Part shown: piece by piece, positions 8,287 to 31,772 of the stretch | How the letters are laid out: each line of letters begins with the position of its first letter | Numbering within the stretch: the first letter of the stretch is position 1 | Source: an uncultured Verrucomicrobiota bacterium | Lineage (GTDB): Bacteria > Verrucomicrobiota > Kiritimatiellia > RFP12 > UBA1067 | Assembly (NCBI GenBank): GCA_946615875.1 | Contig: CAMOIK010000002.1 | Coordinates: 1-36,133 of the forward strand | Direction: 5' to 3' | Length of the DNA stretch: 36,133 nucleotides | Notes under the pieces: generated by a model | The model's database searches: none | What the model was told of the DNA's origin: nothing | Seen by the model: only the letters and a program-made list of their open reading frames with translations | Program-made: the position numbers and the translations under genes

Positions 8287-11200
8287 CTAGTTCTTGATGC
8301 GGATGCGGAAGAAGCACTTCTCGCCGGCATCCTTGGGCTTGGGCACGACGAACTCGCCCGTCTCGAACGTATCGTCGTCCTTCACGTATATCGGGACTTC
8401 ATCGACGCCAGCCGACTTCCAGGAGGATTCGGTGAGGCCGGTCAGGTCGGTGACATACTCCACCTCGCCGTAGAGGTCCGGCGTGTCGGACGCCCCGGTG
8501 CTGGTGTAGAGCCCGCGCGCCCTGCTGGAGACCGCGACGCCGCTGCCGCTCGTCTGCAGGACCTTCGCGCTGCCCCTGGCCGAAAGCGTCACCGTCGCCT
8601 CGTCCGCGCCGATGGCCGAGAATGTCACGTTCGTGGCGTTCGCGGTCGTCACCGTGCCGTCCATGGCGTCCTTCACGGCGAGCAGATACGAGGAGTGCCC
8701 GGACGTGTCAGCGTCGGTGGCTAGCGCGGCGATGCCAGCGTTGTTGATCACGCTGAACACGTATGCGGCCAGGCCGCCGACGGCCGGGGAGCCGTTCTGC
8801 TGATTCTGCAGGTTGCCGGATAGCGTGCGGTTGATCTCGACGCCCGAGTCGAGCGTGTCGTTGAGGTTCTCCGTGCCGTTGTCAAGCCTGCCCCTGTTCT
8901 GCACCATTTCCCAGGCGTCGGGCAGGCAGTTGCCGTTGGTGTCGGCGTCCTCGATGTAGAGGTCGAACGTGTCGCCGAGCCCCATGGTGTCGTCGATCAC
9001 GATAGTGGACGGCGTGAAGATGTCCTTGGCGGCGCCGTCGCGCTTGCAGACGTAGCCCCACGACTCCCAGGCGTCCTTGCGGCGCGTCGTCCCGTAGGAG
9101 TTCATGTCGATGTAGCCGCGCACGTAGTACTTGCCGGGCATGAGGCCGATAAGCGTCGCGTTCACGTCATGCACGGCGTTGGTTGCCGACACGGACGCCT
9201 TGGTGCGCACGTAGGTGCGCGCCACCGGGTCGCCCGAGAAGTCCGGCGTGTCGAACGCCTCGATCCTCACCTCGCCGGCGTTCAGCACGCTGGCGGGGCC
9301 GAAGTATTTCGCGCACACCTTGACCGTCCCCATGCTGTTCGTCAGCGCGTTCATGCGGAACGTGTTGTTGGCGTTCGCCGACCAGTAGTCGCTGCGGAAC
9401 TTGGTGTTGTACATGGTCACGCGCCAGGAGTAGTTCTTGCTCGGGTCGAGCAGGTCGCCGGCATAGACGTCGGGCGTGAACGTATAGACGCCGTTCAAAT
9501 CGCGCGCCGGGGCGCGGCGCACGCCGCTGTCGTAAACGACCGTGTTGCCGTCGCGGACCTGCAGCTTGAAGGCCGTGTAGGAGTTGCTGTCGATCTGCGT
9601 CCCGGCAGCCTCGTTGTCTATCTTCATGGTCCACCGGAACGTCGGGCGGGAGCCGAACACGGCCGACTGCTGCGAACCGGGCGTCTGCGGGACCGGCACG
9701 GTGCGGTAGTCGTCCGAATCGAAGTGCCTGACCGTCGCTATCGTGTAGAGATTGTTCGTAGTGTTTAGCGCGATGGAGCCGTTGCCCAGCACGATGCGGT
9801 AGGTCACCTCGGTCGGGTCGATGCCGCTCGCGACAAGCTTTTCGCTGCCCATCACCTCGCTCTGGAAGTAGTCCCAGTCGATGTCGAAGGCTCCGTTCTC
9901 CAGCACGTCGCCCTCGTAGAGGTAGCTGCGCTGGTCGAGGTTGATCACCTTGTCGAAGATCACGCGGTTCTCCATCTCCAGCGTGTCGATGCCGCTGCCG
10001 TTCACGAGGGTCCGCACCACGCGAACGCGCTCGTACTTGCCGCCGGAAAGCTCGCCCGCCACGAGCGCCGCCTCGTCGCCGTCAGACGAGCCGTACATCG
10101 CCTTGCGGTCGCTCGAAGCCTGCAGCAGATCGACGCGCGTGATGATCGGCGACGTATCTGTCAGCTCGATTTCCGCCACGCCTTGGTGCCAACCGACATC
10201 CGCGACAGTCGAGCCCATTGGCTCGCCATACGTGTACTTGCCGTCGCCGTCGAGGTCGTAGAACGCGACTATCGTGTTCTTCCCTTCCTTTACATAGCCT
10301 TTGTTCGCCTCGCCGAGATAGAGTTCCAGCTTGTTGGCTTGCAGCGTCGGAATGCGGGCGATGTAGTGGAACCTGAACTGCGCAACGTCGATGTCGATCG
10401 TGTTGCCAGATTCATCTTCCGCTCCGTAGAGTTTCGACGTATCTAGCGTGAACTCGCCAGTCACCACGTTGATCGTGCCGATCGTGGCTCCGTTCAGCGC
10501 CAGCGTCGCCTGCGACGAATTGCCGGACTGTATCACGCTGATACCTTTCAGTGTGCGCCACTCCGCCTCATAATCCAGCAACCAGACATTCCCACGACCA
10601 TACTTGTTCACATCGGCCAAATAGGTCTCATACGTTCCCTTGCGGACTCTGACGCCGTAAATCGTCCACTGGTAAACCCTCGAATTCGCCTCCTGGAGAA
10701 CAAGGAGTTCCACGTCGCCTGCCTTGATATATCCCGGAGCAAGGCTGCCCTGGCGGATTTCTCCGCTCACGGAACCGAGATCGAAATACCTCAATGCATC
10801 GACGCCAGGAAGAAGGGTGTAAGACGCATCAGGCACGACGAGTCCCTGCTTGGTGAACGTCTGGACGACGATGCTGCCGACCGCGTTGTTCAGCTGGTTG
10901 TTATATTCGTTCGATTCTCCGCCGCCTTCACCGTCACCCTCCGAAGGAGCAACGAGCGGCTGGTCGCCGTTGTACCGCAGCGTCACCTTGAGCGTCGGAA
11001 TCGGCATGTCTTTGCGCTCGTCGTCGCTATTGATATGACTGATGACCGGCGCGAGGATGGAGGTCGTGAACTGGCTGTAGCGGCGCTCCGCGTAGTTGGA
11101 CCAGCCGTCCTCGTCCTTGTCGAGATCGGCATCCCAGGCGTAGCGGCTGACGTAGGGGACGCCCTGGGCGTCCTCCCAGACGTCCTCCATGAAGTCGTGG

Positions 11201-14200
11201 TCGGTGAAGACCTCTCCGGCGTAGAGCTGGCCGATCTTGAAGAAGTAGTCGCTGTCGTAGGGACTGACGGACTTCGCCTTGACGGGCGAGAAGGCGACCT
11301 CAAACTTGAAATACTCGCTGAGGAGGAACTCCGTGAAGTTGGAGAGGCCGTCGTTGTCGTCGTCGTCCGCGGCGGCGCCCTTGACACCGTAGATGTCGGT
11401 CCACCAGTCTGGCAGGCCGTTCTTGTCGAAGTCCTCGCGGTTCACGTATTCATCGAGGAATTCCTTGGCGGGCAGCATTCCCTTGGCGAGATCGCGGATG
11501 TACGCCTCGTATGCGGACATAAGCGCGCCGTTGCGTTCGATTTCGGTGTCGGCGGCCAAGTCGGCCGGTGCGCCGTAATTGGCCCTGGCGTATTCCTCCC
11601 ACCAGTCGGGCAGATCGTTGGCGTTGGCGTCCGCACCCGTTTCCTGCCATGCGGTCTCAGCGCCCTGCCCGTCCCAGTAGGAGTCTGCGCGCTTGGCGAA
11701 CGCCGAGCCGACCGGCACCAGGTCGGATGTGCCCTCGAAGCCAAGACGGTAGTCGAACAGGAACTGCCTGTAGAAGGCCGCCGAAATCACGCTGTTGGTG
11801 ACGACCGTCCTGTTGTTTATGCTCAACGACCCGCCGCCGTCATGCCAGAACATATTGGCGTACTTGTTGTATAGGTATTCGTCCTCGTAGGTCGTCACGT
11901 TCGAGTTGTACGGATTCATCGTATTGGGGAACGCGAAGCTGTCGGAATCCTGGAAGGTCGAGGGCGTGTATCCCGCGTAGTTCTCAGACCAGTAAACGCT
12001 GTCGGACACGGAACCGCAGAGTTTCGGGAGGTGGGCGACCATGTTCTCCATCCAAGGCACCACATGCTTGGAAGTGTAAACGGTGTTTGCCACGGGAGAC
12101 TGCTGGATCGCAGCCCACCAACCGACCTTCAGGCTGTCGCCGATGTCAGCGGACGGGTTGTCGGGGTTCCTGACGTTGCCGAGGACGTTGGCGGCGAAAC
12201 CCGTCGGCTCGGTGCGGACATACTGCGCATCAGTCGCGTTGGGCAGCGTTGACATATTGTAGTACTGGATGAGTTCCGGAGGAAGCTGCTCGGTGTCGGA
12301 ACCGAGGTTGTCGTTGCGCCGCGCCCCTTCGCACCACTTGCCGAACACCTCCAGCCTGAGCGACTTCACGTCATCGACGGAGAACGACTTGTTGTAGCTG
12401 CCGGAAATGTCCGCCTCCGACCTCGCGCCATCCCAGGTGCGGACTTCGGCGACGCGCCCCTTGTAGAAGTCTGTCGCAATGTCGCTCCAATCCGCCGACG
12501 CCGCCGCCTGCTCGTGGCCGAACGCGCCGTCGCCGTTTGCCCTGCCGCCCATGATTGTGACGGAACGGACGATGCGGTACATGTCATATGGGAAGTCGGC
12601 ATAGCCCTGCGGGTTCTGGACTATGATCGTGACGCCGTTCGCAGGGATGAGCGTGGTGTCGGCGCTCGTCTCGAACCTTCCGTTGCGGTAGAGGCGCAGC
12701 TTTTTGCCGTCGTATGTCGCGGCTATGTGCACCCACTCGCCGTCCACAACCTTGTCGCCGGTGACGCGGGAGGAAAGTTCCGTCGTATTCTGCGTCTCTG
12801 CGAACACATGGCCGGAAGCGTCGATGCCCAGCGCGAAGCACATCCTGATTACGGAGTTCGACGAACTGCCGTGCTCGTCGTGGGACTCCAGATCCCACGC
12901 GCCGTAGCGCGAGGCGCGGCTCACGATGTACTGATCCTGTCCGTTCTCGGATTCGTCGGGCTTGATCCACGCCTCGACAGTGAACTGGCGGAAGAGGTCG
13001 GTGCCGTTCATGTTGCGCGTAATCGGCTTGTAGGAGATCGCGGCGCCGGGAGCGTCCTTTCCACCGAACCAGACGCTCTGGCGACGGGCGGGATCACTGA
13101 AGTCCAGCGGATCTGAGTTCTTGCGGGAAAGGCTCTTCACCTCGCCGGAGTCCGTCCTCCAGTCGTTGTCGGTGTCGTAGCCTTCGTTCTGCTCGAACGA
13201 CGCGATGTAGTCGTGGTTGTAGCAGTTCCACGCTTCGCGCAGACTGTAGTAGGGAGTGAATGCGATTTCCGTGCCGAGAATGCTCGTGAAGACCTGCTCG
13301 TTCAGAGGATTGAGGATTTCGTTCTGGTAGTAGAGCGTTGTATAGGACGGGCTGCCCGCCACCTGGTAGGTCGCGTTCGTTACAAGGTTCGTCGTGATGC
13401 CGGATATGGCGCGGACGAACTCGCCGTTCTCGTCGATGTCATAGACCGGCTGCCCCATGTAGGAGAGATAGTTGGTCGAGACTATCTCGTCCATCCCCAC
13501 AATCGGGTCGAGCGATGGCACGGTTGAGTCCGTCATCCAGAGCGGCGACGGGTCTGTGTGGGCGGAATCGGGGGATGTGACGTTCGCGAGGATTGCCTCC
13601 TCATAGTTCCGGAAACCGTCGCCGTCGGCGTCGCACTCCGCGATACCCATCATCCACGGGAAGCGAATCGGGTCGTTCGGCGGCAGGTCCTCGTTGTCCC
13701 ATCCCACCCATGCGTTGCACCAGGCACTCAGCGTGGTGGACGTGGAGTGGGCGCGGGCGATCACGTCGTTGGCCGTCGCGCCGAACCTGTTGCCGAGCGA
13801 GCCGAGAATCGGGTTGAGGCCGTGGAACAGTTCGTAGTAGTCATCCATGCCGTCGCGGTCCGTATCCCAGAGGCGTGGATCGGTCCCGACGTACTCAAGT
13901 TCATCAATGCTCTCGTCGCGGTACTGCCTGGTCAAGACCTCTCTCGCATCGGTCGTAAGCGTCATGACCGGCGTGGCGACGACCCAATTCGTAGCTGTTG
14001 CACCTTCATAGAGGACGTAGTAGTTGTTGCCGTCCTCATTGTAGATGTTGGTGGCGTAGGTCGAGCCATTGCGCAGCTCCCAGAGCAGCCTGCCGCTCAG
14101 GCTCCTGTCCTGAACAGGTGTGTTCGCCACCATTACGCGCTGACGGATGCGCAGCGGCGGCAGCATATATTTGTTGCCGAGATCGACGCCAGCATGGTCC

Positions 14201-22012: not shown

Positions 22013-22055
22013 TTCCGTATCCTGGGATCTGTGATGTTGCTTTTTCGCCGCCACG

Positions 22056-25000
22056 TCAATACAAGACCTCCTCGAACGTGTTCGTCTTGAACAGCAGCTG
22101 CGGGCCCGTTACGTCGGTGGCGTCGTTGATTGTCCAGTAGTAGAAGGGATGGTCGGAGGGATTCTCGATGAGCCAGTTGCGCCACTGCTCGTAGGCCGGC
22201 GACGACTCCGGCGCCTTGCAGTCGAGCACCTCCACCACCGCCTGGAAATCGTCGTCGAACGATCCCCTGTAGAACACGAACTTCCTCAGGGCGAGCCAGT
22301 AGGAGCGCGGATCGGTGCCCATCAGCGACATCAGCTTGCCCTGTATCTTGAACGTCGCGTTCGTCCAGGCGGATTTCATGCCGCCGTCCACGTAGCCCCA
22401 CGACGTGCCGTCGATGTCGGGCTGCATTCCCTGTAGGATGTACGGCGCCCACGCCTTCTTCCCGCCGACGGAGTAGGAGGAGTTTTCGTTGGCGTTGGTG
22501 ATGTACATCTTGACCGTCAGCAAGGTGTTTTCAAGCTCTTCGCCGGTCTTCTTGCGGATGCGGACGATCGGGCTGACATCCGATATTCCGCCGACGAGCC
22601 ACATGTTGGATGTCGTCGGGGGGATGTCCAGCCAATACATCTGCGTCAGCGTCAGCGGGCCGGTGTACGTCCCGCCGAGCGAATGGAACTCCGCCATGTA
22701 GAGTTCGTCGCTCTCGTCCCACGCGTCGCCGTAGGCGTTCTCGCTGTTGGCGAGCCAGTCCACGATCGCCTCGCGGTAGCGGTTGCCGGAGCCTATGAGG
22801 GCGGCGACGCGGTCGTCAAGCTCCGCGTGCGCGGTCACGGTCACGCTGCCCTCGACGTTGGTGCCCACGTTCACGCGCCACTCGTTGCCGGAGCCGCCGT
22901 AGATCTTGCTGGCGTATGTGGTGTTGGTCACGGACGAACCCGTCTCCGCCCACGTCACGCCGCGCACCACGTGCCACTTGGGGACGCGATAGACGATGTT
23001 GGTGCCCACGCTGCGCTGCACGTACATCGTGATGTCGTTCGCGGTCCACAACTCGCCCGCCTCGTCCGGCTCGCCCTCCGGGTCCCACTGTTCGATGCGC
23101 CCGCCCGTCAATGTCGAGAAGATCAGCCGGCTCATGCCGCCCGGGCTCGGCGGCGTCCCCTCGATCGTCTGGCCGATGTTGAGGCGGCCAGGCGTGCGGC
23201 CCACGCCGTTCGTCCAGCAGGAGAACGTGCCGTTCGTCCAGCAGGCGTAGGAGCCGCCGACGTTCGTCACCACGCTGAGGGAATTGGTGATTATGCCGTT
23301 GAGCGTGTTGTCGTCCGTGCCGATGTACAGGAACTCCGCGTCGCCGATGAGATGGTTGAGGTTCGTGGCCATGACCTCTGGATAGAACGCCTTGGCGTAT
23401 TCCGTGTCGAACTGCGCGAAGTAGTTGGTGCCTATCGCCACCACCTCGGACTCCAGAATGCCTTTCGGGCGGACGAGCTGCACCGCGATCGGATAGAACG
23501 GGGATATTTCGCCGCGCGCGTAAACGACGGTGGAGCCGTCGAACGTCCATACGCCGTCGAGCGTGCCGTCCGTGTATTTCAGCAAACCGCCCGCGCTATC
23601 CTGGGAATAAGGCGAACCGATCACGCGGAACGTCATGCCGTATTTGGTGTTCACGTAGCGGTCCTTGACGCCGGAAAGCCCGTTCGTGCCGAACACGGCG
23701 GCGACGTTGGTCACCACCTCTTCGCCACTCACCGCCAGCATCTGCAGCTGCCATCCCGTGAGGTCGGCGCCGGCCGGGGCGGCGATCTCCACGTACTGGC
23801 ATTTCGCGTCGGTGTTGTCGTAGCCGTCCATCGCGCCGAGTATGTTCACCTCGTTTATCCACGCCCAGTGCGGAGCCACGGTGTCCAGTATCGTATAGGC
23901 GGAGAAGTCGGCGCCGCTCTCCCCGCCCTTGTCCCTGTTGTAGTCGAGCGGCCTGTACCATTCTGGCGTGTTCCAGTCGGCGGAGGTCAGGAAGTTTGTG
24001 GAGGGAATGCTCTCGCCAGCGTCGTTGTACTGGTTGTAGCGCACTTCCAGCATATACTGGACCACAGTGCCGGGCGTGCGCGATTCCGGGACGATCGTGT
24101 CGGAACCCTTCTGGTAGCTGGAGCGGAACACGAAATTGGTCACTTCGCTATCCTCTGGAATCTCGGCGCGCATCAACTCGACCGAATGTGCGGCGGAGTT
24201 CGTCCGCCAGTTGTTGAAGCCCCACACGTCCTCGCCAGAATACCAGTGCAGTATCACCTTCGGAGGATTCGACTCGGAAGCGAAATCTATCTTGTCCGGC
24301 AACTGCGCCTTGTAGATTTCGCACTGCACGCCCCATCCTTCCTTGCACAGCGGCTGTTCGGCTTCGCTCGGCACGTTCGGCACCTCGTATATGCCGTTCA
24401 TGTCGCTGCGGAACGCACCCACCCCGCGGAAGCCCACGCGAGGGCGGATCGCCTCGGTCACCGAGACTTCGTCGAGCAGCACGCGCATCGGCGCTTCACC
24501 GTCCCACTTCTGGGAATCGCCGGCGGCGGAATCGTCGTATTCGGAAGCTTCCTCCACGCCTTCCACGCCGCGCACGACGAGACGGAAGGCCCTGTAGGTC
24601 TCGCTCGCCGAAGTAGTGTAGGAGAAGTTTTCGTAGAGGTTGGTGGTGACCGCGAAATCCTTAAGCCAGATCCACTTGCCCTTATCTTCGCCGTCCTGCG
24701 ACCCATATAGCGCGACGTAGGCCGGGCGCTCGTCGGCGGCGTTGTATTTGCGCGCCTTGAACGTGACGCCGCCCACGATGTTCGTCCCGAACGTCGGCGT
24801 CTGCACGAACGGCAGATGGCGGGTGTATTCGTCGTATTCGTCGCCGTCGATATCCGCCGAAACGGAATTGTTGAGCGCGAGGGCGAGTCCCGGCGCCAAA
24901 GGCTCGGAAATGTCGGAGAGCAGCATCCTCTTCTCGGAATCCTCCGGGTCGCCGAGCGTCCTCACGTTCCAGCCCCACCACGAGCGGTAGTCTATCTCCG

Positions 25001-28000
25001 GCTCGTCGCGCACGGTCACGCTGTCTATGTAGATGTCGCCGAACGCTTTCTCGTCCGTGGAATCCGCCACCTCGGCCACGAGAGCGTCATCGACGCTTAT
25101 CCTGACAAGGCCGTGGACGCCGTGATATCCGAAGTAGCAGCTGCGGACGCCGCTTTCGCCGTTCGTGAAGGTGAGCGTCTCCACCGTCTGCCAGTCGCCG
25201 GCCTTCGTCCAGGCGTAGGAATAGGCGTCGCCTTGCGTGATGTTCGTCGCATTCGTCAGCACCTGGACGCAAAGCCTGGCGTTCGCCTGCGCCCCGTGGA
25301 AGCGGAAGGATATCTGGCCGATGCCCTTCCCTGCGCGGTATCCGTCGGAATACTCCCAGCCATCCATCAGCGGCGAGACGATGGAGGCCACGCCGTCGGT
25401 GGACGTGCGGCGAGCGGAAAGCAGCACGGTGCGGCCCGGCGTGTCGCCGCCGTCGTCCCAGTCCTGCACCCATGCCGACGTGAACGTGAAGTTGGTGTAT
25501 GCGTAGCGCGAAACGTCGCGCGTCGGCTTGTTCGTGACCACCTCGCGGCCGAGCTCGCTCCAGTCGGCGCCGCGCCACTGCGTCAATTCGATGTTGTCGA
25601 TGACGACCTCGGCGGGATTGTCCTCCTCGATGACGCGAATCTGCACCGAGCAATCGTCCGTCTTGCGCAACTGGACCGCGTGGGGCTGCGTGAGGAAGGA
25701 AGCCACCTCCATCGTCGCCACGGGCTCGTCGTCGAAGGCCGTCGAACCAGCCTGTCCCAGGAACACGCCCAGCGTCTGCGCCGGCGCGATCGCCCGCAGG
25801 GCGTTTCGCTTGGACGGGCCGAGTATCTCCGCCATCATGCGCCCCGGCGCGATCGCCCACTCTTCATAGTCGCACGGCATGCCCGCATCGTCGGAGATCA
25901 GGCCGTTCAGCGCATAGTTCGGGCCGTATGCGGAGCTTGGGAACTTGGCCGTCGTGCTGCTGTATGCCGCCATGCCCGACAGACTTCCTCCATCCACGCC
26001 GCCCGAGGAGCCGCCGCTGCGCGTCAACGGATGCGTGTAGTAGCGCGGCCGGTAGAACAGCGCCGGGCAGTTCGCGGAGATGACGCCAGCCGTGCCTTTC
26101 GTCAACGCCGCGCCGCCCGCCGACGCGCCGGTGTCTGTGAATTCCACCCAGTTGCAGGTGACGTCGCTGCCGCTTTCCGCGTCGCCTCCGTAGGTCGCGG
26201 TTTTGCTCGTCTTGATCGCGCCGACGACCTTGACCGAGGTTTCGGTGAGATTCGTCACGGAGATGGCGAGCTTCGCCCACTCGGTGGCGCTGCCGGTCAG
26301 GCCCGAATTCGCGGAAATGCCGGACCAGTGCGCCGATCCCAGGAAGAAGCTCTTCATCTTGCTGCCGGACTTCGCCCACTTCCAGAGCTGCAGATAGCCC
26401 ACGTTCGCCTGTCTTTGGACATAGCGCAGCTCGTAGCATCCCTTGGTCGGACGGTAGTTGGCGACGAGCGACACCGAATACGCGCCTTCCAGCGTGCCGT
26501 TGGTGATTGCGGATACGCCAGAGACGAACGTGTAGTTCTTGAGCGCCGTCATGCCGTCCTCGTCGGAATAGCAGATGTCGTCCCACTCGATGGAGTTCGC
26601 CTGCCTGGCGGTGAAGGAGAGCGTGTCGATACCGCGAGGCTGCGTAGCCCCGCTCGTGACGTATTCGATAGAGCCAAGTCCGTCGCCGCGCATCTGCAGG
26701 GCGTATGCCTTGGACGCTGGATCGTCGTATTTCTCGTAGATGTATTTCGCGTAATTGGCCGTCCAGCCGTTGAGCGTGGTCGCCGTCTTGAAGAAATTGG
26801 TGCTCACTTCGGTCGTCGTGGAAAACGACTCCTTCCAGTATGCCGAGCCGGCGGGCATCGCATTCCATTCGGAGGCGAAGTCGGAGGCAAAAGTCTGTTT
26901 CGCGCCCGACGTGCCGATGGCGGGTCCGCCGTCGAGTTCGTTGAATGCGCCCACGAACGTGCCGCTCGCGCTGACGGCGTCGGTCCATTCGTTGAAGTTC
27001 TGGTAGTCGGCGTGGACGACCGTGATGGAGCGCCCCGACTCTTCCGCCTGGAAAAGCAGGTAGCCCGTCTTGGCGTCTATCGGTATCTCGCACCAGTCGT
27101 TTTCGCCGAACTCGTCCCTTTCGCCGTATGTCGCCGTCAGCACCCCCTGGCCGCCTTCACCGTCGGTGGCGACCGCCTCAACCGCGAAAAGGACGGTGTT
27201 CGTCGCCCACTGGCGCGATCCGTCCGTCTGGCGGTTCACGCCTTCCAGGCGGAACTTGACCGTGCCCGTCTCGTTCGTAGGCGTCTTCAGGTAGCAGCGC
27301 CACGTGGCCTCGTCGGCAAGCGTCGCGTAGTGCGTGTTCGTCGCGCCGTTGCCATCGACGATCGTCACGGCGAACTTCTCCCATGCGCTCGAACCGTCGC
27401 GCAGCCTCACGAACCAATCCGTGCCGAGGGTCTTGCCGAAGACGCTGGCGTTCCCACAGCGGTTCGTGACGGCTTTCACCTCTTCCGTGTAGCCGGGCGT
27501 GCCGATGTCCAGCCCGGAATAGTCGCAATAAACGTAGAACGGCGCCGCCTGCACCACCTCGGTCCAGAACTCTATGTCGCCGGAACGCCGGGGCACGTCG
27601 AGCGGAGCCGTCGAACGGAAGCCGGCGTTGCGCGCGAGCGGCACGCTCTTCCATTCGTTTTCCCCCGCCGGATCAAACGCGTGGGAAAGATTGCGCCAAC
27701 GGTAGAACATCGTCGCGGACACGACCATGTTGCTGCCGCCATCCGTGACCTGCTGCAGCGAATTCGTGTAGAACTCGCCCTCCATGCGGGCATAGATCGC
27801 CCTGCTCGCGACCGACGGAAACGCCGGCTCGAAGGCTCCGCTCCATCCAGTCGTCTGCCGACCGCCCTTCGCCGCGTCGAAATTCCCCAACGGCTTCAAA
27901 TCGACCCTCATCGGCGGCGGCGTCACCTGTATGTTGTCGATCAAAATGAAGCCGCCTTCGTCAAGCGCGAAACCGCCGCTGCCTTTCGTAGGCGGCGCGG

Positions 28001-31000
28001 ACGTCCGCCTGATCCTGAATCTGGCAGGCTCGCGTATTCCCAGAGCGTCCTTATCGACGATCACGCGGTAGAAGCTGTTGGTGCCGCCGCCGTTTTCGAT
28101 ATCGAGAGCCAGCTCTTCGGTATCTACCGTTTCGGCGGCGACGCCATCGACAATCTTTATCGCCGTCATCTTCACTCGCCGCCAGCAGCTGTCGTCAAGC
28201 GCGGCGAAGCGGTTTGTCGAAACGGCGCCCGTGTCGTTCCCTTCGGCGTCGATCACGGCTTCGTAGCCGTGCACGTTCTCGTCGTAGGGAGCCTGCCCGA
28301 TCTTGTTCTCCACGCAGACCTCTACGGCAAGGCAATAACTCTCGACACCCCCCGCGACATGGTTCGTCCAGCCGTTGACGGCGTCGAAATACAACGACCC
28401 GATGCCGTCGCGGTAGCACGCGGAGTAGATGGCCGCGTCCTCCAGGTTGCGCATCACCAGGTGCGCGCTCTCGTCGATCGAACCGGTCGCGCCGTCTTCG
28501 GCGGAGACCGCTTTCGCCGTGGCGGCCTGCGGCAATCCGTTCTTCGCCGGATTTTCCAGCCTGACTCCGGAGACGTACTGGTAGATGTTGCCGATGCGGA
28601 CATTGTCCAGATACCATATTTCCCTGGAACCGCAGAGTTCCGCCACCGGGGACGCGCTCTCGAGCACGTTCGTGGTTCCCGCGAAGAGATGCAGGAACAC
28701 GTTGGCCACGCTCACCTCGTTCTCGTGCACCCAGTAGGTGGCGTCGTCGCCGGAGACGTTCTCCTTGGAACGATAGTAGGCCTGCCCCTCAACAGGCTGG
28801 ATTTCGTTCGCGTCGTCGTTCGCCAGCAGGATTCGCCCGAGGCGCGTGACGGACGCGGCGTCGCCCATGCTGTAAACGGGAAGGAACTGGTTGACCGTAA
28901 TCGTCACGGTCTGCTCCAGCCCAGTCCAGGTGCGGGTGCCGTGATCGCCGTCGCCGGATTCATCTACGGTGAACGTCAGCAGATACGTGCCGGCGGGCAG
29001 CGCCTTCGCATCGACGCCCATGTCAATTCCATCAAGAGTGCGGAAGCGCCAGACGACGTTCGTGGAGCCGTATGCCGCCTCGCCGACCGTCACCTCTATG
29101 CTTTCGCCTGTTTTGATGGTTGTCGGCGACGCGGACGATTCGGCCAGCCAGCGGTTCAGGAACTTCGCCTTGCGGGTGATGTATAGTCCGCTCGCCACGT
29201 TCGCGCCAGCGGCCTGCGCATATTCCGCCTTCGCCCAGGCCGCGCTCACACCGCCAATGCGGATTCGCCATTCGTCGAACGCCCCCACGAACTTCACCTG
29301 CGAAGAAGAAGTGTTTCCGCCGATGCTGATTGCCATGGCGCTGTCCGTCACCGCCGTTTTCAACGTCTGGGTCCCCTTGAAGGCGTCGCCATCGCCGTAG
29401 ATCGTCGCGCTGGCGCCGTCAAAAGCGACCAGCACGTGGATGTAGCCGCGCGTGCGCGTGTCGATGGAGGATATCTGCTGGCCAACGGCGCCGCTGCCGC
29501 CGCCGAACAGGGCGATGTTTCTGGGGGCGGTCACGCCCCAGATCGCGATTTCCCACCCGCCGTCGGTCGCATTCATGGCGGACTTGCGGGAAATGATGCC
29601 GTTCGAGCCGTTTATGGCCGCCACGTCCATCCATCCGGAAACGGTGAATTTTGATCCAAGCGTCAAGGCCGAAGTGTTGGCGAGCTCGAACCTGTTTATC
29701 TGGCCAGATGCCGTAGCGTTCACGCGACCGCACCCGAACACGCCGTTCGTCGAAACCATGCGCGCGCCATTCGCGGCGTTGTTGGAGACGGGCGTGGCGT
29801 CGTGTCCATTGCCGGTCGCATCGGGCGAAACGGCGGTGGCGGCGGCATCGGCGGCGATTTCCTCCGCGAAATGCCAGACGCCGACATACTCGCTCCAGAC
29901 GGAGTCTGCGGGGTTGTCGGGGATCGGGACGGGGATTTCTTCTCCGCTTTCCTCGTCGAGCGTCACGATTTCGCCCCAGCTCATGACGACCTGCGCGCCG
30001 GCCTTGTATTCCGGCATCTTCACCCAGACGAGCGACTCGCCGGAAGGATCCCATGTATCGATTTCATATGCGAGCGGCGTATCCGGATCTTCCGGCAAGG
30101 TGAAGCGGATATCGCTGCGGTCGCCACGCGTGTTGCGGTATATCCCTGGCTGGCCGGCCTCGTCGATCCTGACGAGCATCGGGAAATTGGTCAGCGTCTC
30201 GCCGGGATCTTCCGTCACGGTATATACCGTATGATAGCCGAGGTAATCCGGGAAGCCGAGGTCTTCGTAGTTCCAGACGCTGAACGACGCCACGGCCGCG
30301 GCCGACACGTAGCCCGCGCCATAGGGCGTCCATTCGTCGCCCAGCGAATAGTTTTCGTTCTCGTAAACGATGATCCGCAGCTCGTAGTCGCCCGTGCCGA
30401 GAGGCGTGCCGGCCTCCCACGCGAGCCACGCGGAACTGCCTTTGGGACGGATTTCGCAGCCATACCACGAAGGATCGAGGGTCGGGGTCGAAGAAACCAC
30501 GGGCACGTTCGGGACTTCCCCCTGCTGCCATCCGCTAATGCGCAGGCCGGATACCTGCAGCTGCTGCCGCGTCACGCGCCAGCTACAGGTCACGGAATCC
30601 GAGGTGCCGTCGCTCCACACGATGCCGGTTTTCGGCGTCACAGTGAACTCGTACTCGCCCACGGCATACGCTTTCAGAGTGCCCGTGACATCCAGGAAAT
30701 TCTCGTCGCAGTCGGCGTATGGACAGTATTCCTTGACGCCGTCAAACGGGATCGCCCCCAAATCTGCGGCAGGCTTCTCGAACACGCCATCATGGACCGC
30801 CTCTATGCGGATGATGACAACGCCGCTGCCGCCGGCCCCGCCGCATTCCAGATAGCGGCCGCCACCACCGCCGGAACCTGTGCCCGCCTTGCCTTGCTCT
30901 GCGGATTTAGGTTCCGCCTTCGTCCCGCCGGCGCCATTGCCGCCGATTATTTTGCCGTCGCTTCCCGCGCCTCCCTGTCCGCCGGTTTGCTCGGACGTGG

Positions 31001-31772
31001 AATCTGCCCTTGTGCCGCCGCCGCCGCCAGCCGCGTAGAACAACTCCGGCCCGGTTATGTCGCTTGGCCTGGGTGCGCCGCCGGCGCCGCCCTTGTCTGC
31101 CGAGGAAGCGCCGCCGGGGCCGCCCGCGCCGCCGCCACCGCCGCCGGTCTGGTTGGCGGTGCACGCGCCGCCGGCATTGCCTTGCCCTTCGACGCCTTCG
31201 CCAGGATCGAGGACATATTTCGCCGAATAGCGCGAACCGCCGCCGCCGGAGCCGCCATTCTGGCCCGCATACTGGGTCTGCGACGCCGGAGCGCCGCCGC
31301 CGCCGCCGCCATGCGCAAAGAGATTGGTGGTCACGCCATCGCACAGGATGTACGACGGTTTGCCGCTTTCACCGAAAGTTGTTACCGTTTTGTCCGCCGG
31401 CACGTCGCCGCCGGCGCCGGCCACGACGAGATACGACCCGGCCTTGAAATAGAAGATGTCGTCTATCATGCCGCCGGCGCCGCCGCCGCCGGCGCCGCCA
31501 CGCGTCGAGGACGCCGCACCAGGGGTTGCGCCAGCGCCGCCGCCGCCAACCGCGAGGACCCGCGCCTTTACGGCGCCATTGACCTGAAACACGCCATTCG
31601 TATCAAACTTGTAGTACGTCTTGCCGTTCGCATCGCCGACGACAGCGCCTTCCACGGAGACGACGCTCGTGCTTGCGAGCGAATTTGTGGTGCCGCGAGC
31701 ATGAAACGCCAGCAGCGCGGCAAATGCCGCGATGCACAGCGCTTGCGCCCTCCTACGCGCGCAAATTCTCAT
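22056..31772 (-). CDS. Giant secreted protein A (3238 aa): signal peptide, glycine-rich domain, DUF2341, LamG, a long series of beta-sandwich-like modules, a lamin-tail-like domain, and a ~500-aa C-terminal region.
   Basis: One uninterrupted ORF. The start is trimmed from 31886 to MRICARRRAQALCIAAFAALLAFHARG at 31772, with a strong RBS GGAAGGAGGTG about 7 nt upstream. Several modules end with a similar strand: FILIDNIQVT (~27911-27950), VVIDNIELTQW (~25575-25610), IYIDSVTVRDE (~25003-25040), VLLDEVSVTE (~24445-24485). Confidence 0.85.
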   Translation of the reverse strand: MRICARRRAQALCIAAFAALLAFHARGTTNSLASTSVVSVEGAVVGDANGKTYYKFDTNGVFQVNGAVKARVLAVGGGGAGATPGAASSTRGGAGGGGAGGMIDDIFYFKAGSYLVVAGAGGDVPADKTVTTFGESGKPSYILCDGVTTNLFAHGGGGGGAPASQTQYAGQNGGSGGGGSRYSAKYVLDPGEGVEGQGNAGGACTANQTGGGGGGAGGPGGASSADKGGAGGAPRPSDITGPELFYAAGGGGGTRADSTSEQTGGQGGAGSDGKIIGGNGAGGTKAEPKSAEQGKAGTGSGGGGGRYLECGGAGGSGVVIIRIEAVHDGVFEKPAADLGAIPFDGVKEYCPYADCDENFLDVTGTLKAYAVGEYEFTVTPKTGIVWSDGTSDSVTCSWRVTRQQLQVSGLRISGWQQGEVPNVPVVSSTPTLDPSWYGCEIRPKGSSAWLAWEAGTPLGTGDYELRIIVYENENYSLGDEWTPYGAGYVSAAAVASFSVWNYEDLGFPDYLGYHTVYTVTEDPGETLTNFPMLVRIDEAGQPGIYRNTRGDRSDIRFTLPEDPDTPLAYEIDTWDPSGESLVWVKMPEYKAGAQVVMSWGEIVTLDEESGEEIPVPIPDNPADSVWSEYVGVWHFAEEIAADAAATAVSPDATGNGHDATPVSNNAANGARMVSTNGVFGCGRVNATASGQINRFELANTSALTLGSKFTVSGWMDVAAINGSNGIISRKSAMNATDGGWEIAIWGVTAPRNIALFGGGSGAVGQQISSIDTRTRGYIHVLVAFDGASATIYGDGDAFKGTQTLKTAVTDSAMAISIGGNTSSSQVKFVGAFDEWRIRIGGVSAAWAKAEYAQAAGANVASGLYITRKAKFLNRWLAESSASPTTIKTGESIEVTVGEAAYGSTNVVWRFRTLDGIDMGVDAKALPAGTYLLTFTVDESGDGDHGTRTWTGLEQTVTITVNQFLPVYSMGDAASVTRLGRILLANDDANEIQPVEGQAYYRSKENVSGDDATYWVHENEVSVANVFLHLFAGTTNVLESASPVAELCGSREIWYLDNVRIGNIYQYVSGVRLENPAKNGLPQAATAKAVSAEDGATGSIDESAHLVMRNLEDAAIYSACYRDGIGSLYFDAVNGWTNHVAGGVESYCLAVEVCVENKIGQAPYDENVHGYEAVIDAEGNDTGAVSTNRFAALDDSCWRRVKMTAIKIVDGVAAETVDTEELALDIENGGGTNSFYRVIVDKDALGIREPARFRIRRTSAPPTKGSGGFALDEGGFILIDNIQVTPPPMRVDLKPLGNFDAAKGGRQTTGWSGAFEPAFPSVASRAIYARMEGEFYTNSLQQVTDGGSNMVVSATMFYRWRNLSHAFDPAGENEWKSVPLARNAGFRSTAPLDVPRRSGDIEFWTEVVQAAPFYVYCDYSGLDIGTPGYTEEVKAVTNRCGNASVFGKTLGTDWFVRLRDGSSAWEKFAVTIVDGNGATNTHYATLADEATWRCYLKTPTNETGTVKFRLEGVNRQTDGSRQWATNTVLFAVEAVATDGEGGQGVLTATYGERDEFGENDWCEIPIDAKTGYLLFQAEESGRSITVVHADYQNFNEWTDAVSASGTFVGAFNELDGGPAIGTSGAKQTFASDFASEWNAMPAGSAYWKESFSTTTEVSTNFFKTATTLNGWTANYAKYIYEKYDDPASKAYALQMRGDGLGSIEYVTSGATQPRGIDTLSFTARQANSIEWDDICYSDEDGMTALKNYTFVSGVSAITNGTLEGAYSVSLVANYRPTKGCYELRYVQRQANVGYLQLWKWAKSGSKMKSFFLGSAHWSGISANSGLTGSATEWAKLAISVTNLTETSVKVVGAIKTSKTATYGGDAESGSDVTCNWVEFTDTGASAGGAALTKGTAGVISANCPALFYRPRYYTHPLTRSGGSSGGVDGGSLSGMAAYSSTTAKFPSSAYGPNYALNGLISDDAGMPCDYEEWAIAPGRMMAEILGPSKRNALRAIAPAQTLGVFLGQAGSTAFDDEPVATMEVASFLTQPHAVQLRKTDDCSVQIRVIEEDNPAEVVIDNIELTQWRGADWSELGREVVTNKPTRDVSRYAYTNFTFTSAWVQDWDDGGDTPGRTVLLSARRTSTDGVASIVSPLMDGWEYSDGYRAGKGIGQISFRFHGAQANARLCVQVLTNATNITQGDAYSYAWTKAGDWQTVETLTFTNGESGVRSCYFGYHGVHGLVRISVDDALVAEVADSTDEKAFGDIYIDSVTVRDEPEIDYRSWWGWNVRTLGDPEDSEKRMLLSDISEPLAPGLALALNNSVSADIDGDEYDEYTRHLPFVQTPTFGTNIVGGVTFKARKYNAADERPAYVALYGSQDGEDKGKWIWLKDFAVTTNLYENFSYTTSASETYRAFRLVVRGVEGVEEASEYDDSAAGDSQKWDGEAPMRVLLDEVSVTEAIRPRVGFRGVGAFRSDMNGIYEVPNVPSEAEQPLCKEGWGVQCEIYKAQLPDKIDFASESNPPKVILHWYSGEDVWGFNNWRTNSAAHSVELMRAEIPEDSEVTNFVFRSSYQKGSDTIVPESRTPGTVVQYMLEVRYNQYNDAGESIPSTNFLTSADWNTPEWYRPLDYNRDKGGESGADFSAYTILDTVAPHWAWINEVNILGAMDGYDNTDAKCQYVEIAAPAGADLTGWQLQMLAVSGEEVVTNVAAVFGTNGLSGVKDRYVNTKYGMTFRVIGSPYSQDSAGGLLKYTDGTLDGVWTFDGSTVVYARGEISPFYPIAVQLVRPKGILESEVVAIGTNYFAQFDTEYAKAFYPEVMATNLNHLIGDAEFLYIGTDDNTLNGIITNSLSVVTNVGGSYACWTNGTFSCWTNGVGRTPGRLNIGQTIEGTPPSPGGMSRLIFSTLTGGRIEQWDPEGEPDEAGELWTANDITMYVQRSVGTNIVYRVPKWHVVRGVTWAETGSSVTNTTYASKIYGGSGNEWRVNVGTNVEGSVTVTAHAELDDRVAALIGSGNRYREAIVDWLANSENAYGDAWDESDELYMAEFHSLGGTYTGPLTLTQMYWLDIPPTTSNMWLVGGISDVSPIVRIRKKTGEELENTLLTVKMYITNANENSSYSVGGKKAWAPYILQGMQPDIDGTSWGYVDGGMKSAWTNATFKIQGKLMSLMGTDPRSYWLALRKFVFYRGSFDDDFQAVVEVLDCKAPESSPAYEQWRNWLIENPSDHPFYYWTINDATDVTGPQLLFKTNTFEEVLY
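23560..23875 (-). other. Lamin-tail-domain (LTD)-like segment in giant A (residues ~2635-2740).
   Basis: WAWINEVNILGAMDGYDNTDAKCQYVEIAAPAGADLTGWQLQML resembles the bacterial LTD signature INEv....d....eyvEl.n.....dLsGW.L. Confidence 0.55.
29208..29900 (-). other. LamG (Laminin_G_3-like) domain in giant A, immediately after DUF2341 (residues ~625-855).
   Basis: VGVWHFAEE...DATGNGHDATPV...KFTVSGWMDV...GGWEIAIWG...YIHVLVAFDGASATIYGDGDAF...FDEWRIRIGGVSAAWAKAEY. DUF2341 followed by LamG is a known recurrent pairing. Confidence 0.7.
29973..30245 (-). other. DUF2341-like domain in giant A (residues ~510-600).
   Basis: TNFPMLVRIDEAGQPGIYRNTRGDRSDIRFTLPEDPDTPLAYEIDTWDPSGESLVWVKMPEY matches the characteristic 'FP.lv.l...DiRF....g..L.yEi..wd.....vWVk.p' pattern. 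Confidence 0.7.
30798..31565 (-). other. Glycine-rich domain at the N-terminus of giant A (residues ~70-325).
   Basis: It begins RVLAVGGGGAGATPG...GGAGGGGAGGMI. It contains repeated GGGGG blocks separated by short beta-like segments. It ends GGAGGSGVVIIRIE. This is the same overall pattern as the 'glycine-rich domain-containing protein' family seen in phage and bacterial fibre-like proteins (recalled, not searched). Confidence 0.55.

What the first reader, a model, noticed from the sequence alone, without database searches (positions are those of the whole stretch)
8287..31772. 23-kb 'giant - coiled-coil - giant' module encoding two secreted LamG proteins of 3238 and 4370 aa
Two intact giant ORFs, each with a clear signal peptide and a LamG core, flank a 193-aa single-pass coiled-coil membrane protein. 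The intergenic gaps are about 31-43 bp. Neither giant shows a sorting signal I can recognise: no LPXTG, PEP-CTERM, autotransporter barrel, T9SS CTD or RTX/T1SS tail. The route of export and anchoring is therefore unexplained. The small coiled-coil protein is a candidate membrane tether or assembly factor. The module sits directly upstream, on the same strand, of a secretin-containing pilus-like cluster and next to a sugar importer. That is the kind of context (giant genes beside T2SS/T4P-like machinery and carbohydrate uptake) that I recall being reported for giant genes in some other uncultivated lineages. I recall this from memory and it should be verified. I cannot name a described system with this composition.
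Basis: partly seen in the sequence, partly recalled or inferred. Interest (0 to 1): 0.8.

Follow-up and report, generated by a model that had tools for sequence, protein, structure and literature searches.

The report
Conserved hypervariable giant-protein pair, rumen Kiritimatiellae
Two huge exported proteins with a small membrane-anchored helper gene between them form a real three-gene cassette that recurs in uncultured rumen Kiritimatiellae and diverges far faster than its housekeeping neighbours, which fits a variable surface-binding structure, although its function and export route are not shown.

Summary
On the minus strand lie G1 (31772..22056, 3238 aa), a 193-aa membrane-anchored helical protein SM (22012..21431) and G2 (21399..8287, 4370 aa), separated by 43 and 31 bp.

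The cassette is conserved:
- A G2 homologue directly follows the G1 homologue in 60 of 75 related loci.
- At least 53 of those 60 junctions encode a small protein with a lipobox or TM anchor and a helical hairpin.
- All named source genomes are rumen or gut Kiritimatiellae-type MAGs.

About 90-97% of each giant has no Pfam match. Recognisable parts are a Gly_rich_2 domain and LamG in G1, and LamG plus ten TSP3-type calcium motifs in G2. A moderate AlphaFold model of the G1 C-terminal third matches CBM, MAM and discoidin-type jelly-roll binding modules.

The giants are 27-50% identical between genomes whose adjacent pta and ackA are 79-99% identical. Near-identical strains differ in a mosaic, recombination-like pattern.

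My best reading is Sec-exported, surface-exposed binding proteins plus a periplasm-facing tether or chaperone. The outer-membrane route is unknown.

ackA-pta-kpsF separate G2 from the pilus-like genes. No secretin lies in the window. The "sugar importer" is a generic, non-conserved MFS transporter.

The parts
22056..31772 (-). G1, a 3238-aa exported giant protein. It has a signal peptide, a Gly_rich_2 domain, LamG, about 2400 aa without annotation, and a family-specific C-terminal domain.
30804..31580 (-). G1 Gly_rich_2 domain (residues 65-323).
   Evidence: Pfam PF21722, E 4.6e-14. phrog_2295, E 7.8e-34. No tblastn match in the GenBank phage collection.
29262..29684 (-). G1 LamG / concanavalin-like domain (residues 697-837).
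   Evidence: Pfam Laminin_G_3, E 5.8e-10.
22059..25505 (-). G1 conserved C-terminal third (residues 2090-3238), predicted as a chain of beta-sandwich or jelly-roll domains.
   Evidence: AlphaFold2 mean pLDDT 65. Foldseek matches to reelin repeats, tandem CBM22, meprin/MAM and factor V/VIII C domains, E down to 6e-11. Viral library matches to CUB, PA14, F5/8-C and CBM.
22059..23132 (-). G1 C-terminal domain (residues 2881-3238, motif MYWLDIPPT). It marks the G1 family.
   Evidence: 176 hits among 1.84 billion cluster representatives. In every full-length hit it lies at the extreme C-terminus of a 2200-7000 aa protein. Invariant columns.
21431..22012 (-). SM, a 193-aa protein with an N-terminal TM anchor and a charged helical hairpin (duplicated in this copy).
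   Evidence: No Pfam, NCBIfam, PHROG or PADLOC family.
8287..21399 (-). G2, a 4370-aa exported giant protein. It has a signal peptide, a variable N-terminal 1500 aa, a TSP3-motif-rich core, LamG, a conserved core and a C-terminal tail module.
11086..16314 (-). G2 region carrying ten strict DxDxDGxxDxxE (TSP3-type calcium-binding) motifs, residues 1696-3438.
   Evidence: Pfam TSP3_bac in the window (weak) and in homologues.
12607..12993 (-). G2 LamG domain (residues 2803-2931).
   Evidence: Pfam E 3.6e-14. Profile match to the pappalysin-2 LamG, 2.8e-7. It is the only confidently modelled part of the G2 core.
8290..8505 (-). G2 C-terminal tail of about 70 aa, ending ...KCFFRIRIKN. The G[FY][FY][RK][VIL] end motif is conserved in all complete G2 homologues.
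4999..8200 (-). ackA, pta and kpsF (SIS+CBS), housekeeping genes between G2 and the pilus-like genes. They are syntenic context, not shown to be part of the module.
   Evidence: Synteny.
330..4935 (-). Amuc_1102-family gene (4189-4935), PilM with a C-terminal TM extension (2455-4107), Amuc_1100-family gene (1448-2458) and a TSP3-repeat protein (330-1451). This is a conserved downstream neighbour cluster.
   Evidence: PilM_2 2.5e-44, TSP3_bac. (PF28178 Amuc_1102, PF28028 Amuc_1100, precomputed on exact-copy contigs). No PDB sequence match.
31971..33269 (-). MFS_1 transporter upstream of G1. It is not conserved next to the module.

Best explanation
G1-SM-G2 is a lineage-restricted cassette of rumen and gut Kiritimatiellae.

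Proposed mechanism: it encodes two very large, non-repetitive, beta-rich proteins that enter the periplasm through Sec. They end up exposed at or outside the cell surface as a ligand- or glycan-binding structure, that is, adhesin or surface-coat like. Binding would come from jelly-roll modules (CBM, MAM, discoidin, LamG type). G2 would be stiffened by at least ten TSP3-type calcium sites. Exposure to phages, protists or host antibody would explain why the locus evolves as a hypervariable, recombining 'surface antigen' locus.

The small protein: SM is tethered to a membrane by either a TM helix or a lipid anchor, and its helical hairpin faces the periplasm. Its gene lies between the regions encoding the conserved G1 C-terminal domain and the G2 N-terminus. 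It most likely acts as a dedicated periplasmic holdase, dock or anchor for one or both of those termini.

What is shown:
- gene structure and conservation of the cassette;
- restricted distribution;
- the listed domains;
- hypervariability and mosaicism;
- absence of known sorting signals.

What is inferred:
- Sec export, from N-terminal features read by eye;
- surface exposure;
- a binding function;
- the role and location of SM;
- any use of a secretin for crossing the outer membrane.
For: Cassette conservation:
- G2 directly follows G1 in 60 of 75 loci.
- At least 53 of 60 junctions encode a 95-200 aa protein with a lipobox or TM anchor and shared RMxDPxY and NRxK..VRxR motifs.
- No minus-strand terminator was found between the three genes.

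Distribution:
- 3, 11 and 7 hits among 5.8 billion proteins.
- 8 loci among 185,579 species genomes, all labelled Kiritimatiellae/Kiritimatiellia or, in older labels, Verrucomicrobia or Lentisphaerae. Record titles name rumen, omasum and abomasum.

Extracellular-type parts:
- Signal peptides.
- LamG, TSP3_bac and Gly_rich_2, and ten Ca motifs.
- PKD in a G2 homologue, and He_PIG, MAM and M4 peptidase in the proteins encoded next to G2 homologues.
- The G1 C-terminal model matches tandem CBM22, MAM/meprin, factor V/VIII C, neuropilin b1b2, SGBP-B and a Ca-stabilised adhesin, and phage CUB, PA14, F5/8-C and CBM proteins. No catalytic fold appeared.

Hypervariability:
- G1 C-terminal part is 27-50% identical and G2 32-48%, against pta 89-97% and ackA 79-99%, in the same genome pairs.
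- G1 and G2 similarity rankings disagree. L010-L012 is the closest pair for G1, L008-L012 for G2.
- Strains L027 and L037 are about 95% identical in DNA. dS is about 0 over G2 codons 1500-3000 but 0.23-0.65 across the G1 C-terminus, SM and G2 N-terminus.
- dN/dS of 0.28-0.43 shows the proteins are under constraint.
Against: - There is no direct evidence of surface location, expression or binding.
- The export route across the outer membrane is unknown.
- Structural evidence is limited. One model has mean pLDDT 65. The G2 core model is poor apart from LamG (mean pLDDT 50). More than 85% of G1 and more than 95% of G2 remain unannotated.
- SM is absent from 5 of 60 junctions that leave no room for it.
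- Overall dN/dS below 1 gives no proof of positive selection. High divergence could also reflect weak constraint on long linker-like regions.
- Jelly-roll folds are generic and also occur in enzymes' accessory modules.
Confidence: 0.5

Rival explanations
1. Released substrate-capture or scaffold proteins. G1 and G2 are secreted into the rumen fluid or onto plant or mucin particles, where they bind polysaccharide for nutrient acquisition. They are not a cell-attached antigenic structure.
For: - CBM-like, LamG and MAM-like folds.
- Distant G2-bearing loci lie next to sulfatases and a secreted M4 peptidase with He_PIG and MAM domains.
- Kiritimatiellae are known glycan degraders (my background knowledge).
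Against: - Substrate-binding modules for a fixed set of polysaccharides would not be expected to fall to about 30% identity between genomes with 79-99% identical neighbours.
- No glycoside hydrolase, lyase or sulfatase domain was found in either giant.
- A dedicated membrane-anchored partner gene suggests attachment to the cell.
Confidence: 0.2
2. Structural envelope coat. G1 and G2 co-assemble into an S-layer-like or sheath lattice whose main role is protection, with SM as its membrane anchor.
For: - The pattern of strain-level hypervariability with recombination is typical of S-layer and capsule loci.
- Calcium motifs are present.
- There is a weak LamG-region match to an 'S-layer domain-containing protein', 4qvs, E 0.0018.
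- Two partner proteins are always encoded together.
Against: - No SLH or other known S-layer anchoring module was found.
- Proteins of 340-470 kDa with no repeats are atypical lattice subunits.
- There is no abundance data.
Confidence: 0.15
3. Polymorphic toxin plus immunity. G1 is a giant delivered toxin and the small gene after it encodes its immunity protein.
For: - A giant exported protein followed by a small gene resembles CdiA/CdiI and Rhs layouts.
- Divergence between strains is strong.
Against: - The G1 C-terminus is its most conserved part, and it is one shared domain across 176 clusters. That is the opposite of variable toxin tips.
- No toxin, TPS, Rhs/YD or PT-domain hit was found.
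- SM has conserved motifs and a periplasm-facing anchor across the family.
- No TpsB-like partner is present.
Confidence: 0.03
4. Prophage or tailocin remnant. The giants are phage tail-fibre-like proteins.
For: - The Gly_rich_2 region matches phrog_2295, E 7.8e-34.
- The model matches phage minor tail, tail fibre and lambda gpJ entries at low TM-score.
Against: - No phage genes flank the module. It lies in a conserved chromosomal position beside ackA, pta and kpsF in 8 of 8 loci.
- There is no tblastn match in 50,697 phage records.
- The structural matches are to generic jelly-roll binding modules.
Confidence: 0.02

Closest known systems
Giant genes of Omnitrophota next to T2SS-like loci (West-Roberts et al., bioRxiv 10.1101/2023.11.21.568195)
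   Same: - Very large, mostly unannotated exported proteins in an uncultivated lineage.
- Attachment-type domains that are found only by structure prediction.
- Secretin- or pilus-type genes nearby.
   Different: - Those genes are far larger, above 25 kb. They are preceded by a secretion locus of more than 10 subunits with gspD, gspE and gspF, and followed by pilZ genes.
- Here the genes are 9.7 and 13.1 kb and always come as a pair with a small anchored protein.
- No GspD/E/F or PilZ was seen. The nearest pilus-type genes are separated from G2 by three housekeeping genes.
- No sequence homology between the two sets was tested or found.
Akkermansia muciniphila Amuc_1098-1102 pili-like cluster (PMC4960237, PMC5332112)
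   Same: - The window's downstream genes belong to the Amuc_1102, PilM (Amuc_1101-like) and Amuc_1100 families and occur in the same order.
- The L006 orthologue of the truncated next gene has a signal peptide followed by a region I read by eye as TPR-like, as described for the N-terminal part of PilQ/Amuc_1098.
   Different: - No secretin domain was seen. The window and all retrieved contigs end before it, and 718 aa of the orthologue give no Pfam hit.
- No phmmer match to any PDB chain was found, so none to any deposited Amuc_1100 or Amuc_1102 structure.
- I found no report of giant genes next to the Akkermansia cluster, and I did not check that genome.
Giant Gram-negative adhesins (T1SS RTX adhesins such as LapA/MpIBP; T5SS FHA/CdiA)
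   Same: - Size.
- Calcium-binding motifs in G2.
- A beta-rich multi-domain build with ligand-binding modules. Foldseek lists the Ca-stabilised ice-binding adhesin 4p99 among its matches.
   Different: - Those adhesins are built from long tandem repeats. T1SS types have a C-terminal signal and no Sec signal peptide. T5SS types have a TPS domain plus a TpsB partner, or a barrel.
- G1 and G2 have no internal repeats and do have N-terminal signal peptides.
- They have no RTX, TPS or barrel features, and no transporter gene is adjacent.
Hypervariable surface-structure loci (S-layer, O-antigen/capsule, pilin, flagellin loci)
   Same: - Fixed chromosomal position between conserved genes.
- Extreme allelic divergence.
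- Mosaic recombination between close strains.
   Different: The gene content is entirely different. The comparison concerns evolutionary behaviour only.

Membership tests
LamG / concanavalin-like domain proteins | Laminin_G_3 (PF13385) domain above the gathering score. | tested here: met
   G1 39.9 bits and G2 53.6 bits against a cutoff of 27.6. Profile match to the pappalysin-2 LamG. The domain covers only about 3-4% of each protein.
T5SS (autotransporter / two-partner secretion) | C-terminal beta-barrel, or an N-terminal TPS domain with an adjacent TpsB (POTRA/ShlB) gene, and haemagglutinin-type beta-helix repeats. | tested here: not met
   No such Pfam or NCBIfam hit in G1, SM or G2. Neighbouring genes are MFS, ackA, pta and kpsF.
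T1SS RTX adhesins | No Sec signal peptide, C-terminal secretion signal with GGxGxD nonapeptide repeats, tandem Ig-like repeats, and adjacent ABC/MFP/TolC genes. | tested here: not met
   N-terminal signal peptides are present. GGxGxD occurs once in G1 and never in G2. No internal repeats. No transporter genes are adjacent.
T9SS cargo | C-terminal Por_Secre_tail / type B CTD. | tested here: not met
   No NCBIfam or Pfam CTD hit at E<=0.01. T9SS is to my knowledge a system of Bacteroidota and close relatives, not of the PVC group.
PEP-CTERM / LPXTG sorted proteins | C-terminal PEP or LPXTG motif followed by a TM helix and a basic tail. | tested here: not met
   No such motif, and no C-terminal hydrophobic segment. 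No NCBIfam hit.
Omnitrophota-type giant gene loci | Gene of at least about 25 kb. | tested here: not met
   The genes are 9.7 and 13.1 kb.
Omnitrophota-type giant gene loci | Preceded by a multi-subunit T2SS-like locus (GspD/E/F) and followed by pilZ genes. | tested here: not met
   Upstream lie MFS and mnmG. Downstream lie ackA, pta, kpsF and then Amuc_1102, PilM and Amuc_1100.
Amuc_1098-1102-type pili-like cluster (the neighbour cluster) | Amuc_1102-family, PilM/FtsA-like (Amuc_1101) and Amuc_1100-family genes in order. | tested here: met
   PilM_2 E 2.5e-44. PF28178 and PF28028 hits on exact-copy contigs.
Amuc_1098-1102-type pili-like cluster (the neighbour cluster) | PilQ secretin with a C-terminal secretin domain. 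| not testable with these tools
   The window holds only about 100 N-terminal codons. All retrieved contigs break there. 718 aa of the L006 orthologue give no Pfam hit, and in Amuc_1098 the secretin domain lies at residues 650-876 of 907.
Polymorphic toxin / CDI systems | Conserved N-terminal delivery region, hypervariable C-terminal toxin domain, and a cognate immunity gene directly downstream. | tested here: not met
   The G1 C-terminal domain is the most conserved part and is shared family-wide. The N-terminus is the variable part. No toxin domain was found.
Anti-phage defence systems (PADLOC) | A match to any defence-system protein model. | tested here: not met
   0 families for all three proteins.

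The most novel reading that the evidence does not exclude
The cassette is a previously unrecognised surface-display system of Kiritimatiellae. Two giant partner proteins carry family-specific C-terminal sorting or anchoring modules: the 358-aa G1 C-terminal domain, and the roughly 70-aa G2 tail ending in GFF[RK]V. That tail motif also ends several unrelated secreted proteins in the same loci. A dedicated membrane-tethered helical-hairpin protein would hand the giants to, or anchor them at, the neighbouring PilQ-type (Amuc_1098-1102-like) outer-membrane machine. This would give that enigmatic 'pili-like' PVC cluster a cargo.
Probability: 0.1. Interest if true: 0.75.

Novelty: new variant of a known kind. 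Interest (0 to 1): 0.5.

Why it matters
Kiritimatiellae are common in rumen and gut communities, and as far as I know almost none from these habitats have been cultured. How they interact with particles, hosts, phages and predators is essentially unknown. This cassette spends about 23 kb of genome on two proteins that lack annotation over roughly 90% or more of their length. It sits at a fixed chromosomal site in one clade and diverges far faster than its housekeeping neighbours. That marks it as a likely main interface of these cells with their surroundings and a useful strain-typing locus. It also supplies a concrete, testable candidate cargo for the unexplained Amuc_1098-1102-type pili-like machinery of the PVC group, and two candidate new C-terminal sorting modules. 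If the giants turn out to be ordinary adhesins, the finding is a new protein family and not a new principle.

Tried and rejected
- The full-length G2 query to the 5.8-billion-protein search timed out, so I used segments instead.
- Sequence and profile searches against PDB returned only the LamG domain.
- NCBIfam and PADLOC gave no family for any of the three proteins. PHROGs gave only one family of unknown function, for the Gly-rich domain.
- The phage collection gave no match to the Gly-rich domain. No paper mentions PF21722. Literature searches on Kiritimatiellae giants or adhesins found nothing relevant.
The fallback G2-core model with 10 sequences was poor outside LamG (mean pLDDT 50) and was not fold-searched.
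- Scanning 47 small proteins against Pfam gave only scattered noise, such as PycTM and LptM lipobox matches.
- I tested whether the G2 C-terminal tail is a domain shared with other secreted proteins. A regex finds it on 4-5 non-G2 proteins, but an HMM built from G2 tails alone recovers only one of them, at iE 0.0013. The shared sorting-tag idea is therefore not established.
- The window's Amuc_1100- and Amuc_1102-family proteins gave no phmmer match to any PDB chain. Family membership came only from precomputed newer Pfam models.
- Terminator and promoter scans were uninformative. There are no tRNA, Rfam or notable tandem repeats in the window.
- I considered and rejected four readings: a high-GC ORF artefact, a prophage, a toxin-immunity pair and a defence system. 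The reasons are given under the rival explanations.
Full report
**1. What is in the window**

All recognisable genes lie on the minus strand. In order they are:
- mnmG (35424..33559);
- an MFS_1 transporter (33269..31971);
- G1 (31772..22056, 3238 aa);
- SM (22012..21431, 193 aa);
- G2 (21399..8287, 4370 aa);
- ackA (about 8200..7082), pta (7050..6013) and kpsF (5985..4999);
- an Amuc_1102-family protein (4935..4189);
- PilM with a C-terminal TM extension (4107..2455);
- an Amuc_1100-family protein (2458..1448);
- a TSP3-repeat protein (1451..330);
- about 100 N-terminal codons of one further gene.

The G1-SM and SM-G2 gaps are 43 and 31 bp. G1's ATG follows a GGAAGGAGG ribosome-binding site. 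An independent assembly carries the identical MFS-G1-SM-G2 arrangement, with SM of 193 aa and G2 of 4370 aa.

**2. Anatomy of the three proteins**

- G1 and G2 are not detectably similar to each other, and neither contains internal repeats. That is unusual for giant bacterial surface proteins.
- Both start with a signal-peptide-like N-terminus and have no other hydrophobic segment. SM has one strong TM helix at residues 3-29 and is otherwise charged and helical.
- Pfam finds only Gly_rich_2 (65-323) and Laminin_G_3 (697-837) in G1. In G2 it finds Laminin_G_3 (2803-2931) and a weak TSP3_bac hit.
- NCBIfam and PADLOC find nothing. PHROGs finds one family of unknown function over the Gly-rich domain.
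- PDB sequence and profile searches return only the LamG domain.
- G2 has ten strict DxDxDGxxDxxE calcium-binding motifs between residues 1696 and 3438. G1 has none.
- No LPXTG, PEP-CTERM, RTX, T9SS CTD, autotransporter or TPS feature is present.
- Homologues show the same sparse annotation.

**3. Structure**

I modelled G1 residues 2090-3238 with AlphaFold2 and a 12-sequence alignment. The model is moderate (mean pLDDT 65) and almost all-beta, with several domains.

Foldseek against PDB matches reelin repeats, tandem CBM22, meprin and enteropeptidase MAM regions, factor V/VIII C domains, neuropilin b1b2, a Bacteroides surface glycan-binding protein and a calcium-stabilised adhesin. E-values reach 6e-11, but TM-scores are low, as expected for a multi-domain query. 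The viral library returns CUB, PA14, F5/8-C, CBM, LamG and minor-tail proteins. These are all jelly-roll binding modules. No catalytic fold appeared.

The G2 core model (residues 2690-3500) was confident only over LamG. I did not use it further.

**4. Relatives and the module test**

*Rarity.* Homologues are very rare in protein databases. Segment queries gave 3, 11 and 7 hits among 5.8 billion proteins, none with a functional name.

*Taxonomic range.* A scan of one genome per species (185,579 species) found 8 loci. All are MAGs labelled Kiritimatiellae/Kiritimatiellia or, in older labels, Verrucomicrobia or Lentisphaerae. Several titles name rumen, omasum or abomasum. A metagenome scan with the G1 family profile found 75 loci, none more than about 40% identical to the window's G1.

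*G1-G2 linkage.* Mapping the window proteins onto all loci shows that a G2 homologue begins within 36-850 bp of the G1 stop in 60 of 75 loci with at least 1.2 kb downstream of G1. One of them, L040, has a larger estimated gap of 1170 bp. The 15 exceptions are the most distant G1-like proteins (26-33% identity). Many of these are followed by ordinary-sized genes, including proteins of about 870-970 aa in four loci; in three short contigs a small ORF and then an ORF running off the contig end follow, so an undetected divergent partner is not excluded.

*The small gene.* In at least 53 of the 60 junctions the gap encodes a 95-200 aa protein. It has either a lipoprotein lipobox or an uncleaved TM helix, followed by two charged helices with shared motifs: RMxDPxY near the start and NRxK..VRxR near the end. 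Five junctions have gaps of 58 bp or less and no such gene. The window's SM carries an extra second hairpin, shared only with its closest relative, L004 (61% identity). The family has no Pfam match.

The module is real.

**5. Variants**

- In more distant genomes (L011, L013, L090) a G2 homologue carrying PKD, TSP3 and LamG domains occurs without G1. It is preceded by the small anchored protein. It is followed by a protein of about 1500 aa with He_PIG and MAM domains, which in L090 also has an M4 peptidase domain. Sulfatases and DUF481 lie nearby.
- In L089 the cassette is followed by a third giant, called at 8076 aa.
- G2 homologues range from 3435 to 6358 aa.

**6. Context claims**

*Downstream cluster.* The block ackA-pta-kpsF-Amuc_1102-PilM-Amuc_1100-TSP3 protein follows G2 in every locus of the window's clade that reaches that far. 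These are the window plus L002, L006-L010 and L012, or 8 of 8. Those genomes have 79-99% identical ackA and pta. Conserved synteny is expected from relatedness alone and does not show a functional link. The block is absent from the distant G2-bearing loci.

*Family membership.* Precomputed Pfam hits on exact-copy contigs assign the 248-aa and 336-aa proteins to the Amuc_1102 and Amuc_1100 families.

*Secretin.* In Akkermansia the cluster ends with the PilQ secretin Amuc_1098, a 907-aa protein with N-terminal TPR repeats and its secretin domain at residues 650-876 (PMC4960237). Here the corresponding gene is cut after about 100 codons. Three independent assemblies break at the same acidic repeat. 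The 718 aa available from the L006 orthologue give no Pfam hit. The secretin is therefore inferred, not observed.

*Upstream gene.* It is an MFS_1 transporter. It is absent upstream of G1 in all other loci, where the upstream genes vary.

*Literature.* The recalled precedent is real: Omnitrophota giant genes lie beside T2SS-like and carbohydrate-import loci. Those loci differ in gene size and gene content.

**7. Evolutionary behaviour**

*Divergence against neighbours*:
- Across the same genome pairs, pta is 89-97% identical, ackA 79-99%, kpsF 71-80% and PilM 57-73%.
- The G1 C-terminal half is only 27-50% identical and G2 32-48%.
- L010 and L012 share 99% ackA and 97% pta, but only 50% G1 and 37% G2.
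- L008 and L012 share 96% ackA, but 28% G1 and 48% G2. G1 and G2 therefore have discordant histories.

*Mosaicism between close strains*:
- Strains L027 and L037 are about 95% identical in DNA.
- Synonymous divergence is near zero over 1500 codons of G2.
- It is 0.23-0.65 across the G1 C-terminus, SM and the G2 N-terminus. This patchy pattern indicates an imported recombination tract spanning the junction.
- Overall dN/dS is 0.43 for G1 and 0.28 for G2, so the proteins are constrained and functional.

*Conserved and variable regions:*
- The N-terminal part of G1 is its most variable region.
- The G1 C-terminal 358 aa is its most conserved region. It occurs in only 176 of 1.84 billion cluster representatives. 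In every full-length hit it lies at the extreme C-terminus of a 2200-7000 aa protein.

**8. Interpretation**

The evidence that bears on function is:
- Sec-type N-termini;
- extracellular-type binding modules and calcium motifs;
- no catalytic or toxin domain;
- a fixed chromosomal site with extreme, recombining allelic diversity under purifying selection;
- a dedicated membrane-anchored partner gene.

Together these best fit a pair of surface-exposed, ligand- or glycan-binding giant proteins. They would form an adhesin-like or coat-like structure that diversifies under pressure from phages, protists or host immunity.

SM alternates between a TM helix and a lipid anchor. The location common to both anchors is the periplasmic face of a membrane, most simply the inner membrane. 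I therefore favour a periplasmic holdase, dock or anchor role over an outer-surface tether. The junction-spanning recombination tract hints that the G1 C-terminus, SM and the G2 N-terminus are co-adapted. That rests on one strain pair.

How the giants cross the outer membrane is unknown. A T2SS-type route or the neighbouring PilQ-type machine are candidates, without evidence for either. I give this explanation a confidence of about 0.5. The rivals are released substrate-capture proteins (0.2), a structural coat (0.15), a toxin-immunity pair (0.03) and a phage remnant (0.02).

**9. Novelty and score**

No described family or system matches the composition, and I found no literature on it. The likely kind, giant exported binding proteins at a hypervariable surface locus, is known.

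The new features are:
- the obligate non-homologous, non-repetitive pair;
- the conserved small anchored hairpin protein between them;
- the family-specific C-terminal modules;
- the restriction to rumen and gut Kiritimatiellae.

I rate it a new variant of a known kind, with interest 0.5. The most novel reading not excluded is a new display system that feeds the Amuc_1098-1102-type machine through new C-terminal sorting modules. I give that a probability of about 0.1.

Noticed in passing
window 8290-8505 (-); L002, L006-L013, L090 G2 ends; L013:4208, L011:16754, L090:16018; L003:3393, L016:83, L021:1179: Every complete G2 homologue ends with a module of about 70 aa, 'YxVEY..L....W ... G[FY][FY][RK][VIL]xV', 0-8 residues from the stop. 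A similar ending is found on the He_PIG/MAM proteins downstream of G2 in the G1-less loci, and on three unrelated proteins just upstream of G1. The regex hits 17 of 999 ORFs, against about 1.2 expected by my estimate. An HMM built from G2 tails alone recovers only one non-G2 protein (iE 0.0013). A shared sorting tag is therefore a lead, not a finding.
   Followed up: partly
L089:14032-23978 (ENA ERZ919342 scaffold_725): In this 84-kb contig the G1-small-G2 cassette is followed on the same strand by a third giant gene, called at 8076 aa with no Pfam hit.
   Followed up: no
L011:5796-21181; L013; L090:4854-20601: A G1-less variant occurs in more distant Kiritimatiellae. Its order is small anchored protein, then a G2 homologue with PKD, TSP3 and LamG, then a protein of about 1500 aa with He_PIG and MAM domains. 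In L090 that last protein also has FTP and Peptidase_M4 domains. Sulfatases and DUF481 lie upstream.
   Followed up: partly
L027 vs L037, L026, L028 (ERZ8082xx contigs): Near-identical strains show mosaic divergence. dS is about 0 over G2 codons 1500-3000 but 0.23-0.65 across the G1 C-terminus, the small gene and the G2 N-terminus. A stretch of about 900 bp near the G1 N-terminus cannot be aligned between L027 and L026 or L028.
   Followed up: partly
L048, L050, L051, L058, L061-L063, L066, L067, L070, L075, L076, L082, L083, L087: A distant G1-like subfamily (26-33% identity, with the same C-terminal domain) has no detectable G2 after it. In four loci a protein of about 870-970 aa follows, and in others unrelated ordinary-sized genes.
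   Followed up: partly
window 1-330 (-); L091, L092 and L093 ends: The window and three independent assemblies all stop within the same acidic, proline- and glutamate-rich repeat at the start of the gene after the TSP3 protein, which is the presumed PilQ. This repeat seems to break assemblies, and it is why the secretin cannot be checked.
   Followed up: partly
window 2455-4107 (-): The PilM homologue is 550 aa. PilM_2 covers residues 8-347. A TM segment and about 170 further residues follow, which looks like a PilM-PilN-type fusion.
   Followed up: no
window 1448-2458 (-) and 330-1451 (-): The Amuc_1100-family protein carries an RGRGRGRGRGR low-complexity stretch. That stretch caused spurious Sm-protein matches in the PDB search. 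The next protein combines an N-terminal TM segment, a CxxC...CxxC zinc-ribbon-like motif and TSP3 calcium repeats like those of G2.
   Followed up: no
window 35425-36133: About 700 bp after mnmG contain no convincing gene, tRNA or Rfam family. I did not examine this stretch further.
   Followed up: no
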